A stretch of 64,000 bases of DNA, taken from NCBI GenBank assembly GCA_965218075.1, contig CBDCJZ010000003.1, positions 1,476,768 to 1,540,767 of the forward strand, written 5' to 3'. The translations under genes were made by a program, and so were the position numbers. Shown here piece after piece: positions 38,977-43,104 of this stretch (the stretch's first letter is position 1; each line of letters starts with the position of its first letter). Origin of the DNA: Owenweeksia sp. GTDB lineage: Bacteria > Bacteroidota > Bacteroidia > Flavobacteriales > Schleiferiaceae. The notes beneath the pieces are model-generated. The model saw only the letters and a program-made list of their open reading frames with translations. It ran no database searches and was not told the origin of the DNA.

Positions 38977-39663
38977 ATGAAAAGGTTAATACTTATTGCC
39001 TCCTTGTGTTTTTCAATATCTAATGCTTCTGCAGAGATAGTATCTACTGACCAAATTATAGAGGTAATTAATAATCAGAAGATAAGAATAATAAAAAGTG
39101 TGACCTTTAAATCTGAACCAGAGCCAGGATGCTCGGCCTTTAAATTATTTACTTATGAAGTGTTAGATGGCGGCATCGTAGATATTCGGTTTTATTATGA
39201 CGCTAACGGCTTCGGGTTTGGTCTTTCCCGTCCTTGTTCTAGGACAGATACTGTTTGGATTGATTTGCCCTTAAGAGGGATAGGTGGAAACCCATTTCCA
39301 GCGGGCATTTACACGATTATTGTACGTGCAGTTGAAGTATGGCATCATAGGATAAAAATTTATCAAATAATAAGTCATGTTGTTGATACCATCGATGATG
39401 TAGCTCTTTCTGTAAATAACTATACTGCCAAAACAAATGTCATAGAGGTTTTTCCAAATCCTTCAAGGGATATTTTCAATATGGAATATCCAAGAGGATT
39501 AGATATTTTCAATATTTCTTTGATAGACCTGCAAGGAAGGAAAATAAAGCTATTTAAAGGGTCTCAAAAACAATTGAACATCTCCGGAACTCTACCCGGC
39601 CAATATTTCCTAAATCTGGAAACCAGTAAAGGAATTATCACTGAGAAAGTGTTGATTGAGTAA
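38977..39663 (+). CDS. Small secreted T9SS cargo protein, array copy 1
   Basis: 228 aa. Signal peptide MKRLILIASLCFSISNASA, an N-terminal domain with two Cys, and a C-terminal VFPNPSRDIFNMEY...QYFLNLETSKGIITEKVLIE T9SS sorting domain. Confidence 0.8.
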   Translation: MKRLILIASLCFSISNASAEIVSTDQIIEVINNQKIRIIKSVTFKSEPEPGCSAFKLFTYEVLDGGIVDIRFYYDANGFGFGLSRPCSRTDTVWIDLPLRGIGGNPFPAGIYTIIVRAVEVWHHRIKIYQIISHVVDTIDDVALSVNNYTAKTNVIEVFPNPSRDIFNMEYPRGLDIFNISLIDLQGRKIKLFKGSQKQLNISGTLPGQYFLNLETSKGIITEKVLIE

Positions 39664-39842
39664 AAGTGGATGGGGGGTAACAATGTATAATAAAAACATA
39701 TATGAAACAGGTGTTTTTATACGGTAGCTTTGGTTTGTGATGATGAGATTGTGGATGTTATGGAATTGGTAATCGAATAATGTTTTATGGCAAAGGAATG
39801 GAATCCCTCCACTTTTGGTTTAACTAAAAATAACTAATAATA

Positions 39843-40524
39843 ATGAAAAGGTTAATACTTATTGCCTCCTTGTGTTTTTCAATATCTAATGCTTCTGCAG
39901 AGATAGTATCTACTGACCAAATTATAGAGGTAATTAATAATCAGAAGATAAGAATAATAAAAAGTGTGACCTTTGGATCTCAAGTACGGCCAGGATGCGG
40001 GCTCTTTGAATTATTTACTTATGAAGTGTTAGATGGCGACATCGTAGATATTCGGTTTTATTATAACACTGCCTTCCACGGGTTTGGTAGCCGTCCTTGT
40101 TCTAGGACAGATAACTGTTTGGATTGATTGTCCCTTAAGAGGGATAGGAGGCCCATTTCCAGCAGGCATTTACACGATTATTGTACATGCAGTTGAAGTA
40201 TGGTATGATAGGATAAAAGGTTATCAAATACTAAGTCATGTTGTTGATACCATCGATGATGTAGCTCTTTCTGTAAATAACTATACTGCCAAAACAAATG
40301 TCATAGAGGTTTTTCCAAATCCTTCAAGGGATATTTTCAATATGGAATATCCAAGAGAATTAGATATTTTCAATATTTCTTTGATAGATCTGCAAGGAAG
40401 GAAAATAAAGCTATTTAAAGGGTCTCAAAAACAATTGAACATCTCCGGAACTCTACCCGGCCAATATTTCCTAAATCTGGAAACCAGTAAAGGAATTATC
40501 ACTGAGAAAGTGTTGATTGAGTAA
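39843..40524 (+). pseudogene. Array copy 2, frameshifted (track ORFs 39843..40127 and 40084..40524)
   Basis: It reads gataactgtttgg where the other four copies read gatactgtttgg. The extra A at ~40113/40114 splits the reading frame. Confidence 0.8.
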
Positions 40525-40703
40525 AAGTGGATGGGGGGTAACAATGTATAATAAAAACATATATGAAACAGGTGTTTTTATACGGTAGCTTTGGTTTGTG
40601 ATGATGAGATTGTGGATGTTATGGAATTGGTAATTGAATAATGTTTTATGGCAAAGGAATGGAATCCCTCCACTTTTGGTTTAACTAAAAATAACTAATA
40701 ATA

Positions 40704-41381
40704 ATGAAAAGGTTAATACTTATTGCCTCCTTGTATTTTTCAATATCTAATGCTTCTGCACAGATAGCATTTACTGATCAAATTATAGAGGTAATTAATA
40801 ATCAGATGAGAATAATAAAAAGTGTGGCCTTTACCTTTGGAGTAGTGCCAGGATGCGCGCACTTTGAATTATTTACTTATGAAGTGTTAGATGGCGGCAT
40901 CGTAGATATTCGGTTTTATTATAACACTGGCTTCATCGGGATTGATAGCCGCCCTTGTTCTAGGACAGATACTGTTTGGATTGATTTGCCCTTAAGAGGG
41001 ATAGGAGGCCCATTTCCAGCAGGCATTTACACGATTATTGTACATGCAGTTGAAGTATGGTATGATTGGATAAAAGGTTATCAAATAATAAGTCATGTTG
41101 TTGATACCATCGATGATGTAGCTCTTTCTGTAAATAACTATACTGCCAAAACAAATGTCATAGAGGTTTTTCCAAATCCTTCAAGGGATATTTTCAATAT
41201 GGAATATCCAAGAGGATTAGATATTTTCAATATTTCTTTAATAGACCTGCAAGGAAGGAAAATAAAGCTATTTAAAGGGTCTCAAAAACAATTGAACATC
41301 TCCGGAACTCTACCCGGCCAATATTTCCTAAATCTGGAAACCAGTAAAGGAATTATCACTGAGAAAGTGTTGATTGAGTAA
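40704..41381 (+). CDS. Small secreted T9SS cargo protein, array copy 3
   Basis: 225 aa with the same architecture. N-terminal variant AQIAFTDQ..NNQMRII. Confidence 0.8.
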   Translation: MKRLILIASLYFSISNASAQIAFTDQIIEVINNQMRIIKSVAFTFGVVPGCAHFELFTYEVLDGGIVDIRFYYNTGFIGIDSRPCSRTDTVWIDLPLRGIGGPFPAGIYTIIVHAVEVWYDWIKGYQIISHVVDTIDDVALSVNNYTAKTNVIEVFPNPSRDIFNMEYPRGLDIFNISLIDLQGRKIKLFKGSQKQLNISGTLPGQYFLNLETSKGIITEKVLIE

Positions 41382-41561
41382 AAGTGGATGGGGGGTAACA
41401 ATGTTATAATAAAAACATATATGAAACAGGTGTTTTTATACGGTAGCTTTGGTTTGTGATGATGAGATTGTGGATGTTATGGAATTGGTAATCGAATAAT
41501 GTTTTATGGCAAGGGAATGGAATCCCTCCACTTTTGGTTTAACTAAAAATAACTAATAATA

Positions 41562-42242
41562 ATGAAAAGGTTAATACTTATTACCTCCTTGTGTTTTTCA
41601 ATATCTAATGCTTCTGCAGAGATAGTATCTACTGATCAAATTATAGAGGTAATTAATAATCAGAAGATAAGAATAATAAAAAGTGTGACCTTTGGATCTC
41701 AAGTACGGCCAGGATGCGGGCTCTTTGAATTATTTACTTATGAAGTGTTAGATGGCGACATCGTAGATATTCGGTTTTATTATAACACTGTCTTCCACGG
41801 GTTTGGTAGCCGTCCTTGTTCTAGGACAGATACTGTTTGGATTGATTTTCCCTTAAGAGGGATAGGAGGCCCATTTCCAGCAGGCATTTACACGATTATT
41901 GTACATGCAGTTGAAGTATGGTATGATAGGATAAAAGGTTATCAAATACTAAGTCATGTTGTTGATACCATCGATGATGTAGCTCTTTCTGTAAATAACT
42001 ATACTGCCAAAACAAATGTCATAGAGGTTTTTCCAAATCCTTCAAGGGATATTTTCAATATGGAATATCCAAGAGGATTAGATATTTTCAATATTTCTTT
42101 GATAGACCTGCAAGGAAGGAAAATAAAGCTATTTAAAGGGTCTCAAAAACAATTGAACATCTCCGGAACTCTACCCGGCCAATATTTCCTAAATCTGGAA
42201 ACCAGTAAAGGAATTATCACTGAGAAAGTGTTGATTGAGTAA
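41562..42242 (+). CDS. Small secreted T9SS cargo protein, array copy 4
   Basis: 226 aa. Nearly identical to copy 2, including the variable patches, but intact. Confidence 0.8.
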   Translation: MKRLILITSLCFSISNASAEIVSTDQIIEVINNQKIRIIKSVTFGSQVRPGCGLFELFTYEVLDGDIVDIRFYYNTVFHGFGSRPCSRTDTVWIDFPLRGIGGPFPAGIYTIIVHAVEVWYDRIKGYQILSHVVDTIDDVALSVNNYTAKTNVIEVFPNPSRDIFNMEYPRGLDIFNISLIDLQGRKIKLFKGSQKQLNISGTLPGQYFLNLETSKGIITEKVLIE

Positions 42243-42420
42243 AAGTGGATGGGGGGTAACAATGTATAATAAAAACATATATGAAACAGGTGTTTTTATA
42301 CGGTAGCTTTGGTTTGTGATGATGAGATTGTGGATGTTATGGAATTGGTAATCGAATAATGTTTTATGGCAAAGGAATGGAATCCCTCCACTTTTGATTT
42401 AACTAAAAATAACTAATAAA

Positions 42421-43104
42421 ATGAAAAGGTTAATACTTATTGCCTCCTTGTATTTTTCAATATCTAATGCTTCTGCACAGTCTGCACAGATAAGATCTAC
42501 TGATCAAATTATAGAGGTAATTAATAATCAGATGAGAATAATAAAAAGTGTGGCCTTTGAAGTTGCAATGAAGCCATGCCCGAGCTTTGAATTATTTACT
42601 TATGAAGTGTTAGATGGCGGCATCGTAGATATTCGGTTTTATTATCACATTTACAACTCCGGGCTCATCTGGAGTCCTTGTTTTAGGACAGATACTGTTT
42701 GGATTGATTTGCCCTTAAGAGGGATAGGAGAACCATTTCCAGCAGGCATTTACACGATTATTGTACATGCAGTTGGAGTATGGTATGATAGGATAAAAGG
42801 TTATCAAATAATAAGTCATGTTGTTGATACCATCGATGATGTAGCTCTTTCTGTAAATAACTATACTGCCAAAACAAATGTCATAGAGGTTTTTCCAAAT
42901 CCTTCAAGGGATATTTTCAATATGGAATATCCAAGAGGATTAGATATTTTCAATATTTCTTTGATAGATCTGCAAGGAAGGAAAATAAAGCTATTTAAAG
43001 GGTCTCAAAAACAATTGAACATCTCCGGAACTCTACCCGGCCAATATTTCCTAAATCTGGAAACCAGTAAAGGAATTATCACTGAGAAAGTGTTGATTGA
43101 GTAA
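42421..43104 (+). CDS. Small secreted T9SS cargo protein, array copy 5
   Basis: 227 aa. A 9-bp duplication tctgcacag x2 (42472-42489) lies at the signal-peptide cleavage region. It has unique variable patches. Confidence 0.8.
   Translation: MKRLILIASLYFSISNASAQSAQIRSTDQIIEVINNQMRIIKSVAFEVAMKPCPSFELFTYEVLDGGIVDIRFYYHIYNSGLIWSPCFRTDTVWIDLPLRGIGEPFPAGIYTIIVHAVGVWYDRIKGYQIISHVVDTIDDVALSVNNYTAKTNVIEVFPNPSRDIFNMEYPRGLDIFNISLIDLQGRKIKLFKGSQKQLNISGTLPGQYFLNLETSKGIITEKVLIE

What the first reader, a model, noticed from the sequence alone, without database searches (positions are those of the whole stretch)
39109..42675. Two hypervariable patches embedded in otherwise identical paralogs, each adjacent to a conserved cysteine
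Patch V1 (coordinates in copies 1-5: 39109-39144, 39975-40010, 40833-40868, 41694-41729, 42559-42591) reads as follows:
- copy 1: KSEPEPGCSAFK
- copy 2: GSQVRPGCGLFE
- copy 3: TFGVVPGCAHFE
- copy 4: GSQVRPGCGLFE
- copy 5: EVAMKPCPSFE

Patch V2 (39199-39231, 40065-40094, 40923-40952, 41784-41813, 42646-42675) reads as follows:
- copy 1: DANGFGFGLSR
- copy 2: NTAFHGFGSR
- copy 3: NTGFIGIDSR
- copy 4: NTVFHGFGSR
- copy 5: HIYNSGLIWS

The 54 nt between the patches (ttatttacttatgaagtgttagatggcg.catcgtagatattcggttttattat) and the flanks are identical except for one position. The patches are almost unalignable at the nucleotide level between copies 1, 2/4, 3 and 5, and they include in-frame length changes.

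V1 contains one of the two Cys of the mature domain (..PGC.. / ..KPC..), and V2 immediately precedes the other (..PC..). This suggests two surface loops pinned by a disulfide. The pattern is that of a conserved scaffold with localised diversification. It points to strong diversifying selection, or to patch-wise recombination with gene conversion excluded from the patches.
Basis: partly seen in the sequence, partly recalled or inferred. Interest (0 to 1): 0.85.

Follow-up and report, generated by a model that had tools for sequence, protein, structure and literature searches.

The report
Secreted gene array with two hypervariable loops
Five back-to-back, almost identical copies of a small secreted bacterial protein differ almost only in two short loops, where nearly every DNA change alters an amino acid; this is a strong signature of selection for diversity, in a protein family of unknown function.

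Summary
Window 38837-43142 holds exactly five tandem 858-864-nt units. Each unit encodes a ~226-aa protein: signal peptide, an orphan all-beta N-domain, and a type IX secretion (T9SS) C-terminal sorting domain. The array sits directly downstream of a T9SS S8 subtilase.

The two patches cover 69 of about 690 coding nt. They carry at least 55 substitutions, against at least 29 in the rest of the gene. The patches are not unalignable: they align codon for codon. Codon positions 1/2/3 carry 26/23/6 changes, which matches fixation of amino-acid-changing mutations only. Patch pN is 0.39-0.47, patch pS 0.12-0.14, and pS elsewhere 0.02.

Both cysteines are invariant in all eight known family members. 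Secondary-structure prediction puts V1 and V2 in loops at the same end of a beta-hairpin. The 3D model is too poor to test the proposed disulfide.

I rejected a diversity-generating retroelement (DGR), donor cassettes within the window, RNA structure and simple old paralogy. The best reading is a young or homogenised tandem array under intense diversifying selection on a two-loop binding surface. The ligand is unknown; a protease is one guess. This is a new member of a known kind of pattern, in a very rare family.

The parts
35702..38914 (+). S8 subtilase gene (1070 aa) with a weak T9SS C-terminal domain. It is the conserved upstream partner of the small-protein gene, and its last 78 nt are part of repeat unit 1.
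   Evidence: Pfam Peptidase_S8 hit, E = 1.4e-46. The same gene pair occurs in two metagenome-assembled genomes (MAGs), loci L001 and L003.
38837..43142 (+). Tandem array of exactly five units: 38837-39700, 39701-40561, 40562-41419, 41420-42279 and 42280-43142.
   Evidence: Repeat families and alignments; unit boundaries from motif positions.
38977..39663 (+). Copy 1 (228 aa): signal peptide, orphan beta N-domain and T9SS C-terminal domain (residues 158-227).
39843..40524 (+). Copy 2. One extra A at about 40114 (GATAACTG where the others have GATACTG) splits it into ORFs 39843-40127 and 40084-40524. This is either a pseudogene or a sequencing error.
40704..41381 (+). Copy 3 (225 aa).
41562..42242 (+). 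Copy 4 (226 aa). Its V1 is identical to that of copy 2, and its V2 differs from copy 2 by one nucleotide.
42421..43104 (+). Copy 5 (227 aa), the most divergent copy. It has a 9-nt duplication in the signal peptide at 42472-42489.
39109..39144 (+). V1 patch of copy 1. The equivalents are 39975-40010, 40833-40868, 41694-41729 and 42559-42591. Pro, Cys and Phe are invariant in all five copies; the Gly of the Pro-Gly-Cys core is deleted in copy 5. Eight codons are hypervariable.
39145..39198 (+). Conserved 54-nt segment encoding LFTYEVLDG(G/D)IVDIRFYY, predicted to form a beta-hairpin. The equivalents are 40011-40064, 40869-40922, 41730-41783 and 42592-42645.
   Evidence: strands predicted at residues 55-63 and 66-74.
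39199..39231 (+). V2 patch of copy 1. The equivalents are 40065-40094, 40923-40952, 41784-41813 and 42646-42675. One Gly is invariant and the patch lies immediately before Pro-Cys.
39701..39780 (+). Relic copy of the 3' end of the subtilase gene inside the inter-copy spacer, carrying a +TT insertion. It recurs at 40562-40641, 41420-41499 and 42280-42359 and marks the founding duplication junction ACATA|TATGAAAC.

Best explanation
Shown:
- An 860-nt unit, made of the last 78 nt of the subtilase gene, the intergenic region and the small gene, was duplicated once and then amplified to five tandem copies.
- The units are near-identical (about 1-2% neutral divergence) and are mosaics of one another.
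- Two short segments, 12 and 10-11 codons long, have accumulated amino-acid-changing substitutions almost to saturation at codon positions 1 and 2, while position 3 has barely changed.
- Structural residues inside the patches are kept: Pro, Cys and Phe in V1 (the Gly of Pro-Gly-Cys is missing only from copy 5) and Gly in V2.

Inferred:
- The near-identity of the units comes from recent common ancestry plus unequal crossing-over and gene conversion between copies.
- The patch pattern is positive diversifying selection acting on ordinary point mutations. It is not a dedicated mutator or a cassette exchange.
- The two patches are loops at the same end of a beta-hairpin, held by the family-invariant Cys pair, and together they form one ligand-contact surface.
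- The array therefore gives the cell four distinct binding specificities, exported by the type IX secretion system, probably in one transcript with the subtilase.

Guessed: the ligand is an extracellular protein. A protease is one option, with the loops acting like the contact loops of a standard-mechanism inhibitor.
For: - Array anatomy. All four inter-copy spacers share the same novel junction and the same +TT insertion. The spacers differ by 1-3 of 184 nt.
- Clustering. Variable columns number 36 of 69 patch nt against 28 of 624 other coding nt, p = 7e-24.
- Selection. Patch pN is 0.39 against pS 0.12. c1 against c2 shows 22 non-synonymous and 0 synonymous differences. Two independent pairs give 47 non-synonymous and 4 synonymous differences, p = 0.006. 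Patch pN of 0.47 compares with a non-patch pS of 0.024, p = 1e-24.
- Codon positions. The 26/23/6 split fits the shares expected if only non-synonymous mutations are fixed (0.416/0.442/0.142, chi-square p = 0.64). It rejects mutation that is blind to codon position (p = 0.0018).
- Stepwise change. c2 and c4 differ in the patches by one nucleotide, GCC to GTC, at the most variable codon.
- Recombination. 26 of 78 site pairs are incompatible, and the block shared by c3 and c5 ends 6 nt before V1.
- Constraint elsewhere. pN/pS of the C-terminal domain is 0.11.
- Loops and Cys. Both Cys are invariant in all 8 family members. V1 is predicted as the loop at residues 46-54 and V2 as the loop at 75-85, flanking the hairpin 55-63/66-74, in both AlphaFold2 runs.
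- Secretion. Por_Secre_tail and TIGR04183 hits, and the fold search matches only T9SS C-terminal domains.
- Link to the subtilase. The same gene order, with 62-64-nt gaps, occurs in three genomes.
Against: - The rate excess is very large: about 12 replacements per lineage in 17 codons, during about 1% neutral divergence. Selection alone can produce this, but a local rise in mutation rate cannot be excluded.
- Patch pS (0.14) is about 6 times the flank pS (p = 0.01). The patches could therefore be somewhat older than their flanks.
- Patch GC content is 0.47-0.58 against 0.34 elsewhere, and transversions are enriched. I did not test whether amino-acid choice alone explains this.
- There are only five sequences from one genome and no population data.
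- The N-domain model is unreliable (pLDDT 40-47), so loop exposure and the disulfide are not shown.
- No ligand is known. If the copies only inhibited their own neighbouring subtilase, loop diversification among them would be unexpected.
Confidence: 0.55

Rival explanations
1. The patches are old and their surroundings have been homogenised. In this reading the paralogs, or at least their loop alleles, are ancient and kept distinct by balancing or diversifying selection. Gene conversion repeatedly erases divergence everywhere else, so the array only looks young.
For: - The copies are mosaics, and a conversion-block edge lies next to V1.
- Patch pS (0.14) exceeds flank pS (0.024), p = 0.01.
- The terminal copies c1 and c5 are the most divergent, as expected under concerted evolution.
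Against: - Third codon positions inside the patches are mostly intact: 17 of 23 are invariant, and c1 against c2 shows 0 synonymous differences over 15.8 synonymous sites.
- Truly old copies of the same family show pS of 0.2-0.6 in these loops.
- The 54-nt segment between the two patches has no synonymous difference in any pair. Homogenising it separately would need conversion tracts shorter than 54 nt with both ends between the patches.
Confidence: 0.2
2. A dedicated, targeted diversification mechanism writes new sequence into the two patches. It could be a diversity-generating retroelement (DGR) or an undescribed system that works at codon level.
For: - Codon positions 1 and 2 are near saturation while position 3 is kept. 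Several codons read NNC in all copies, for example AAC/GCC/GGC/GTC/TAC, which recalls the AAC codons of DGR templates.
- The patch boundaries are sharp.
- The patches have unusual GC content and an unusual transversion spectrum.
Against: - No reverse transcriptase was found among the window ORFs of 150 aa or more that were scanned with Pfam. The four housekeeping ORFs directly downstream of the array (43306-46453) were not scanned.
- No template-like second copy exists in the window.
- Between the start of V1 and the end of V2 there are 18 invariant A and 31 invariant T, and 5 A and 7 T are invariant inside the patches, so the variation is not specific to one base.
- Structural residues inside the patches are spared, and the codon-position split is what protein-level selection predicts.
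- c2 and c4 differ at 1 of 66 patch nt and 6 of 711 other nt, so there is no sign of ongoing hypermutation.
Confidence: 0.08
3. Segmental gene conversion from silent donor cassettes elsewhere in the genome replaces the patches, as in the vls, pilS and tprK antigenic-variation systems.
For: The layout of variable segments within an invariant framework and a tandem array resembles cassette systems. Only 64 kb of a 2.25-Mb genome could be searched.
Against: - Nothing outside the array in the window matches the gene or its conserved 28-mer.
- Every copy is a full gene with its own start codon, signal peptide and C-terminal domain.
- Retained third positions and single-step differences argue for point substitution rather than block replacement.
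Confidence: 0.05
4. Assembly artefact: strain variants of a single gene, or of fewer copies, were laid out as a tandem array.
For: Repeats of 860 nt at about 97% identity are hard to assemble, and c2 carries a single-base indel typical of sequencing error.
Against: - The array has exactly five units with consistent junctions and unique flanks on both sides.
- Each unit has its own combination of flank variants.
- The contig is a single 2.25-Mb sequence.
- An artefact would not by itself create an excess of non-synonymous changes in two loops.
Confidence: 0.04

Closest known systems
Neisseria Opa outer-membrane protein family, with its HV1 and HV2 regions (from my own knowledge, not tested here)
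   Same: Multiple near-identical paralogs in one genome differ mainly in two short hypervariable, surface-loop-encoding segments set in a conserved framework. There is recombination between copies.
   Different: Opa proteins are beta-barrel outer-membrane adhesins at dispersed loci, phase-varied by pentamer repeats. Their HV diversity comes largely from recombination and import. Here the genes are tandem, are T9SS cargo with an orphan domain, have no phase-variation repeat, and show point-substitution signatures. There is no homology.
Potempins of Tannerella forsythia (PMC9890683)
   Same: These are small (98-132 aa) beta-proteins in a member of Bacteroidota, genetically linked to and co-transcribed with T9SS-secreted peptidases, one of which is a subtilase (inhibited by PotC). 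Particular loops insert into the active-site cleft.
   Different: Potempins are lipoproteins encoded upstream of the peptidase and occur as single copies. Here the proteins have a signal-peptidase-I type leader and a T9SS C-terminal domain, lie downstream of the subtilase, and are amplified fivefold with diversified loops. A family profile finds no solved structure at E <= 10. I have no evidence of inhibition.
Hypervariable reactive-centre loops of tandemly duplicated serine-protease inhibitors (for example rodent SERPINA arrays, PMC12646145; ovomucoid, ecotin and SSI from my own knowledge)
   Same: Tandem duplication is combined with diversifying selection concentrated in target-contact loops. 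In ecotin and SSI, a disulfide next to the reactive loop braces two contact loops.
   Different: There is no sequence or detectable fold relationship. The target of the loops here is unknown.
Diversity-generating retroelement (DGR) variable proteins
   Same: Variation is confined to a short stretch, mostly at codon positions 1 and 2, in an otherwise constant ligand-binding protein.
   Different: There is no reverse transcriptase or template repeat in the window, and the variation is not adenine-specific.
Fungal NLR WD/ANK/TPR repeats with high internal conservation (Podospora het-d/het-e; PMC11761791, abstract only)
   Same: Near-identical tandem units, homogenised by unequal exchange, carry a few hypervariable positions under positive selection that form a binding surface.
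   Different: Those are repeats within a single eukaryotic intracellular receptor gene, not separate secreted bacterial genes.

Membership tests
T9SS type A cargo protein | C-terminal Por_Secre_tail / TIGR04183 sorting domain | tested here: met
   PF18962 hits at E = 5e-11 to 2e-10 in copies 1, 3 and 5. TIGR04183 at E = 2.9e-10 in copy 4. The best fold matches are T9SS substrate C-terminal domains (8gl6_D, 8glk_D).
T9SS type A cargo protein | N-terminal Sec signal peptide | tested here: met
   Read directly from the sequence: MKRLILIASLCFSISNASA|E, with a basic N-region, a hydrophobic core and an Ala-x-Ala cleavage site. No predictor was run. The Cys at position 11 is replaced by Tyr in c3 and c5, so this is not a lipoprotein signal.
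Diversity-generating retroelement (DGR) target | Reverse transcriptase gene nearby | tested here: not met
   No RVT family hit among the window ORFs of 150 aa or more that were scanned. The four housekeeping ORFs at 43306-46453 were not scanned. The rest of the genome is not available.
Diversity-generating retroelement (DGR) target | Template repeat homologous to the variable region | tested here: not met
   No match outside the array by pattern search, blastn-short or tblastn. This covers the window only.
Diversity-generating retroelement (DGR) target | Variation restricted to template adenines | tested here: not met
   There are 18 invariant A and 31 invariant T between the start of V1 and the end of V2, and invariant columns of all four bases inside the patches.
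Cassette-based antigenic variation (vls, pilS, tprK type) | Silent partial donor copies that supply the variable segments | tested here: inconclusive
   None in the 64-kb window. The other 2.19 Mb of the genome could not be searched. All five array members are full-length genes.
Known protease-inhibitor families (ecotin I11, SSI I16, I9 propeptide, potempins) | Sequence or profile similarity to the family | tested here: not met
   No Pfam or NCBIfam hit in the N-domain at E <= 0.1. A profile of 8 family members finds 0 PDB chains at E <= 10.
Known protease-inhibitor families (ecotin I11, SSI I16, I9 propeptide, potempins) | Shared fold, and inhibition of a protease | not testable with these tools
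   The N-domain model has pLDDT 40-47, so fold matches are meaningless. Inhibition needs an experiment.
Tandem multigene family under concerted evolution with diversifying selection | Head-to-tail units that share a founding junction, with mosaic relationships between copies | tested here: met
   Five units with the same junction and the same +TT insertion. 26 of 78 informative site pairs fail the four-gamete test.
Tandem multigene family under concerted evolution with diversifying selection | Non-synonymous rate above the synonymous rate in a localised region | tested here: met
   Patch pN/pS is 3.2 on the patches' own pS and about 19 on the gene-wide pS. Counts are 47 non-synonymous against 4 synonymous, p = 0.006.

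The most novel reading that the evidence does not exclude
The two patches are written by an undescribed targeted diversification process that randomises codon positions 1 and 2 of chosen loop codons in a T9SS-secreted binding protein. It would differ from DGRs in not being adenine-specific and in having no local reverse transcriptase. The result would be a small, antibody-like repertoire encoded next to a secreted protease.
Probability: 0.07. Interest if true: 0.9.

Novelty: new member of a known kind. Interest (0 to 1): 0.5.

Why it matters
The family is extremely rare. Searches of 5.8 billion and 1.8 billion proteins found eight members from three genomes. The loop-restricted excess of amino-acid replacements is among the strongest one can see in a bacterial genome: patch pN is about 19 times the neutral divergence.

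If the loops form a binding surface, the locus is a compact natural example of repertoire building by tandem duplication plus positive selection in a secreted bacterial protein. It also points to a testable partnership with a T9SS subtilase, possibly a new inhibitor or adaptor scaffold.

It does not at present reveal a new mechanism. The pattern itself, a conserved framework with hypervariable loops and concerted evolution, is well known from other systems.

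Tried and rejected
- **DGR.** No reverse transcriptase in the ORFs scanned, no template repeat, and many invariant A and T.
- **Donor cassettes.** Nothing in the window.
- **RNA or DNA hairpin pairing V1 with V2.** The consensus fold shows 0 compensatory pairs and V1 does not pair with V2. There are no Rfam hits.
- **Invertible or shufflon-type switching.** No inverted repeats bracket the patches.
- **Relaxed constraint.** Rejected, because the patch rate far exceeds the neutral rate and pN exceeds pS.
- **Hypermutation that is blind to codon position.** Rejected by the 26/23/6 split.
- **Function from structure.** Single-sequence and 8-sequence AlphaFold2 models both give N-domain pLDDT below 50. 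Foldseek matched only the C-terminal domain. The PDB profile search found nothing.
- **More relatives.** One genome scan with the small protein and two metagenome scans found nothing. The exhaustive HMMER search returned only a spurious repetitive 774-aa protein, P0007. A profile search added no members beyond P0008-P0011.
- **Source genome.** Exact-protein look-ups failed, so the rest of the genome and the organism's name remain unknown.
- **Tandem Repeats Finder.** It cannot see the array, because its longest period is 500 nt.

Full report
**What is there**

The region 38837-43142 is a head-to-tail array of exactly five units: 38837-39700, 39701-40561, 40562-41419, 41420-42279 and 42280-43142. 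Each unit carries one gene of about 226 codons:
- c1, 38977-39663
- c2, 39843-40524
- c3, 40704-41381
- c4, 41562-42242
- c5, 42421-43104

Copy c2 is interrupted by one extra A near 40114. Each product has three parts. The first is a Sec-type signal peptide (MKRLILIASLCFSISNASA|E, read by eye). The second is a ~133-residue N-domain with no Pfam or NCBIfam match. The third is a type IX secretion C-terminal sorting domain (PF18962 and TIGR04183).

The gene immediately upstream, 35702-38914, encodes a 1070-aa S8 subtilase that also ends in a weak T9SS tail. Downstream lie ORFs that read as frr, pyrH, tsf and rpsB, named from their translations. The window ORFs scanned with Pfam are ordinary chromosomal Bacteroidota-type genes, with no reverse transcriptase, integrase or transposase among them. 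The four ORFs just downstream of the array were not scanned.

**How the array arose**

The repeat unit does not start at the gene. It starts 78 nt inside the 3' end of the subtilase gene, at TATGAAACAGG (38837), and ends about 37 nt after the small gene's stop codon.

All four inter-copy spacers therefore contain a relic of the subtilase tail. All four share the same novel junction (ACATA|TATGAAAC) and the same +TT insertion relative to the real tail. One founding duplication followed by amplification, or by complete homogenisation, explains this.

The non-coding spacers differ by only 1-3 of 184 nt. Outside the patches, 26 of 78 pairs of parsimony-informative sites fail the four-gamete test. 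The groupings change along the unit: {c3,c5} up to 6 nt before V1, {c2,c4} from V1 to 39370, c1 alone at 39283-39359, and {c2,c5} at 39528. The copies are therefore mosaics produced by inter-copy exchange.

**Check of the observation**

All ten patch coordinates translate to the quoted peptides. The 54-nt segment between the patches is identical in all copies apart from 39173 G/A. The mature proteins have exactly two Cys, one in V1 and one just after V2.

Variable columns number 36 of 69 nt in the patches and 28 of 624 nt elsewhere in the gene (p = 7e-24). Pairwise differences are 24-46% in the patches and 1.8-3.1% outside. The exception is c2/c4, at 1 of 66 against 6 of 711.

The flanks are not identical. 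The patches are not unalignable: they align codon for codon, and 17 of 23 third positions are invariant.

**The key pattern**

Minimum substitutions at codon positions 1/2/3 are 26/23/6 in the patches and 9/12/8 in the other 208 codons.

Nei-Gojobori estimates:

| Region | pN | pS | pN/pS |
|---|---|---|---|
| Patches | 0.39 | 0.12 | 3.2 |
| All other codons | 0.022 | 0.021 | about 1 |
| C-terminal domain | 0.002 | 0.022 | 0.11 |

For c1 against c2, the patches hold 22 non-synonymous and 0 synonymous differences. For two independent pairs (c1-c2 and c3-c5) the counts are 47 non-synonymous and 4 synonymous (binomial p = 0.006). Patch pN of 0.47 compares with a non-patch pS of 0.024 (p = 1e-24).

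The 26/23/6 split fits the shares expected if only amino-acid-changing mutations are fixed (0.416/0.442/0.142; chi-square p = 0.64). It rejects a process that is blind to codon position (p = 0.0018).

Inside the patches the residues that stay fixed are structural ones: Pro, Cys and Phe in V1 (the Gly of Pro-Gly-Cys is deleted only in c5) and Gly in V2. The other 17 codons take chemically very different residues.

The only patch difference between the sister copies c2 and c4 is a single step, GCC to GTC, at the codon that differs in all five copies.

Taken together, this is the signature of protein-level positive selection acting on point mutations.

**Mechanisms tested and rejected**

- **DGR.** Pfam scans of the window ORFs of 150 aa or more, excluding the four just downstream of the array, found no reverse transcriptase. 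There is no template-like sequence in the window. There are 18 invariant A and 31 invariant T between the start of V1 and the end of V2, so the changes are not base-specific.
- **Donor cassettes.** None in the window. The rest of the genome could not be searched.
- **RNA or DNA structure.** The consensus fold does not pair V1 with V2 and has 0 compensatory pairs. There are no Rfam hits.
- **Inversion systems.** No inverted repeats bracket the patches.
- **Simple old paralogy.** Rejected by the intact third positions. The family provides its own control here. In the distant relatives, the equivalent loops show pS 0.2-0.6 with pN/pS 0.5-0.75, against 0.33-0.41 in the rest of their N-domain. Those loops are less constrained but ordinary.
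- **Old patches with homogenised flanks.** This remains partly viable, because patch pS (0.14) is about six times flank pS (p = 0.01). However, the 54 nt lying between the two patches shows no synonymous difference in any pair. That is hard to achieve by conversion without also overwriting the patches.

**What the protein is**

The family is tiny. Word-indexed and exhaustive HMMER searches find only the window's own copies plus four proteins, P0008-P0011, from two MAGs. These share 25-28% identity with the window copies over the N-domain. One other hit, P0007, is a spurious repeat protein. Scans of metagenome contigs found nothing.

In both MAGs, one copy sits directly downstream of an S8 subtilase of the same ~1070-aa type as the window gene (60% identical in L001): L001 605-3820 followed by 3884-4546, and L003 4727-7936 followed by 8001-8660. 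A second copy lies elsewhere in each MAG (L004, L002). The pair of subtilase and small T9SS protein, separated by 62-64 nt, is thus conserved in three genomes. Only this genome has amplified the small gene.

Both Cys are invariant across all eight sequences.

AlphaFold2 gives a confident model only for the C-terminal domain. The N-domain pLDDT is about 40-47 even with the 8-sequence alignment. Fold search matches only T9SS C-terminal domains, and a family profile finds no solved structure.

Both runs do agree on secondary structure: strand 35-45, loop 46-54 (V1), strands 55-63 and 66-74 joined by an Asp-Gly turn, loop 75-85 (V2), then strand 86-95. If the conserved 18 residues form that hairpin, V1 and V2 necessarily emerge side by side at its open end, next to the two Cys. 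This supports, but does not prove, the picture of two adjacent loops braced by a disulfide.

**How it most likely works**

Shown:
- The proteins carry the signals for T9SS export.
- They differ essentially only in two short segments.
- Those segments evolve under positive selection.

Inferred:
- The two loops form one contact surface, so the array supplies four different specificities (c2 and c4 are nearly the same, and c2 may be dead).
- The array is probably co-transcribed with the subtilase, since no terminator-like site lies in the spacers.

Guess: the partner is an extracellular protein. The link to a subtilase and the loop-plus-disulfide layout recall standard-mechanism protease inhibitors. 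Bacteroidota do pair small beta-protein inhibitors with T9SS peptidases: the potempins include PotC, which inhibits a subtilase (PMC9890683). Tandem inhibitor arrays with diversifying selection are also known in animals (PMC12646145).

There is no homology to any of these. In addition, diversification among copies would not be expected if the only target were the cell's own neighbouring protease. I therefore hold the inhibitor reading at roughly one in four, within the broader reading of a diversified binding surface.

**Verdict**

This is a new and very rare member of a known kind of evolutionary pattern, not a new mechanism. The residual chance of an unknown targeted diversifier is small, at about 7%.

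Noticed in passing
window 40106-40117 (copy 2): A single extra A (GACAGATAACTG where the other copies have GACAGATACTG) splits copy 2 into ORFs 39843-40127 and 40084-40524. It is not in a homopolymer tract, so phase variation is unlikely. It is either a pseudogene or a sequencing error.
   Followed up: partly
window 39690-39720, 40551-40581, 41409-41439, 42269-42299: The duplication junction forms a 9-bp AT-rich inverted repeat, ATAAAAACA ... TGTTTTTAT. The +TT insertion in the relic subtilase tail is what completes the complementarity. It could be a weak inter-copy hairpin.
   Followed up: no
window 40056-40071, 40914-40929, 41775-41791 paired with 41399-41422 and 43121-43137: A 16-17-nt inverted repeat, 94% complementary, links the left edge of V2 (TTTTATTATAACACTG) to the sequence just after the stop codon (CAATGTTATAATAAAA). 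It is AT-rich and may be chance. Its meaning is unknown.
   Followed up: no
window 39283-39359 (copy 1): Ten differences private to copy 1, including a 3-nt insertion, cluster in 77 nt. The peptide reads GGNPF...RAVEVWHHRIKI where the other copies have GG-PF...HAVEVWYDRIKG. Synonymous and non-synonymous changes are mixed, so this looks like an unhomogenised older segment in the edge copy rather than a third selected patch.
   Followed up: partly
window 42472-42489 (copy 5): A 9-nt tandem duplication (TCTGCACAG twice) adds Ser-Ala-Gln at the signal-peptide cleavage region of copy 5.
   Followed up: no
window patches V1 and V2 (all copies): The patches are GC-rich islands (0.47-0.58) in a gene with 0.34 GC. 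Third positions are C in 35% of patch codons, against 13% elsewhere. Transversions and multi-state columns are over-represented. I did not test whether amino-acid choice alone explains this.
   Followed up: partly
window 39266-39267 and equivalent positions: One codex outside the patches also varies among the copies: Leu in c1, c3 and c5, Cys in c2 and Phe in c4, in the motif WID(L/C/F)PLRG. The c2 change (TTG to TGT) takes two nucleotide steps.
   Followed up: no
window 8141-12547 (+) and 12761-13939 (-): Two large ORFs (1468 aa and 392 aa) have no Pfam match at E <= 0.01.
   Followed up: no
L001 3884-4546, L004 1606-2265, L003 8001-8660, L002 8001-8663: Each of the two MAGs that carry this family has two diverged copies, one next to the subtilase and one elsewhere. 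The C-terminal domain of P0009 resembles that of the window copies more than that of its own paralog, which suggests domain exchange. The MAG proteins carry additional Cys residues that the window copies lack.
   Followed up: partly
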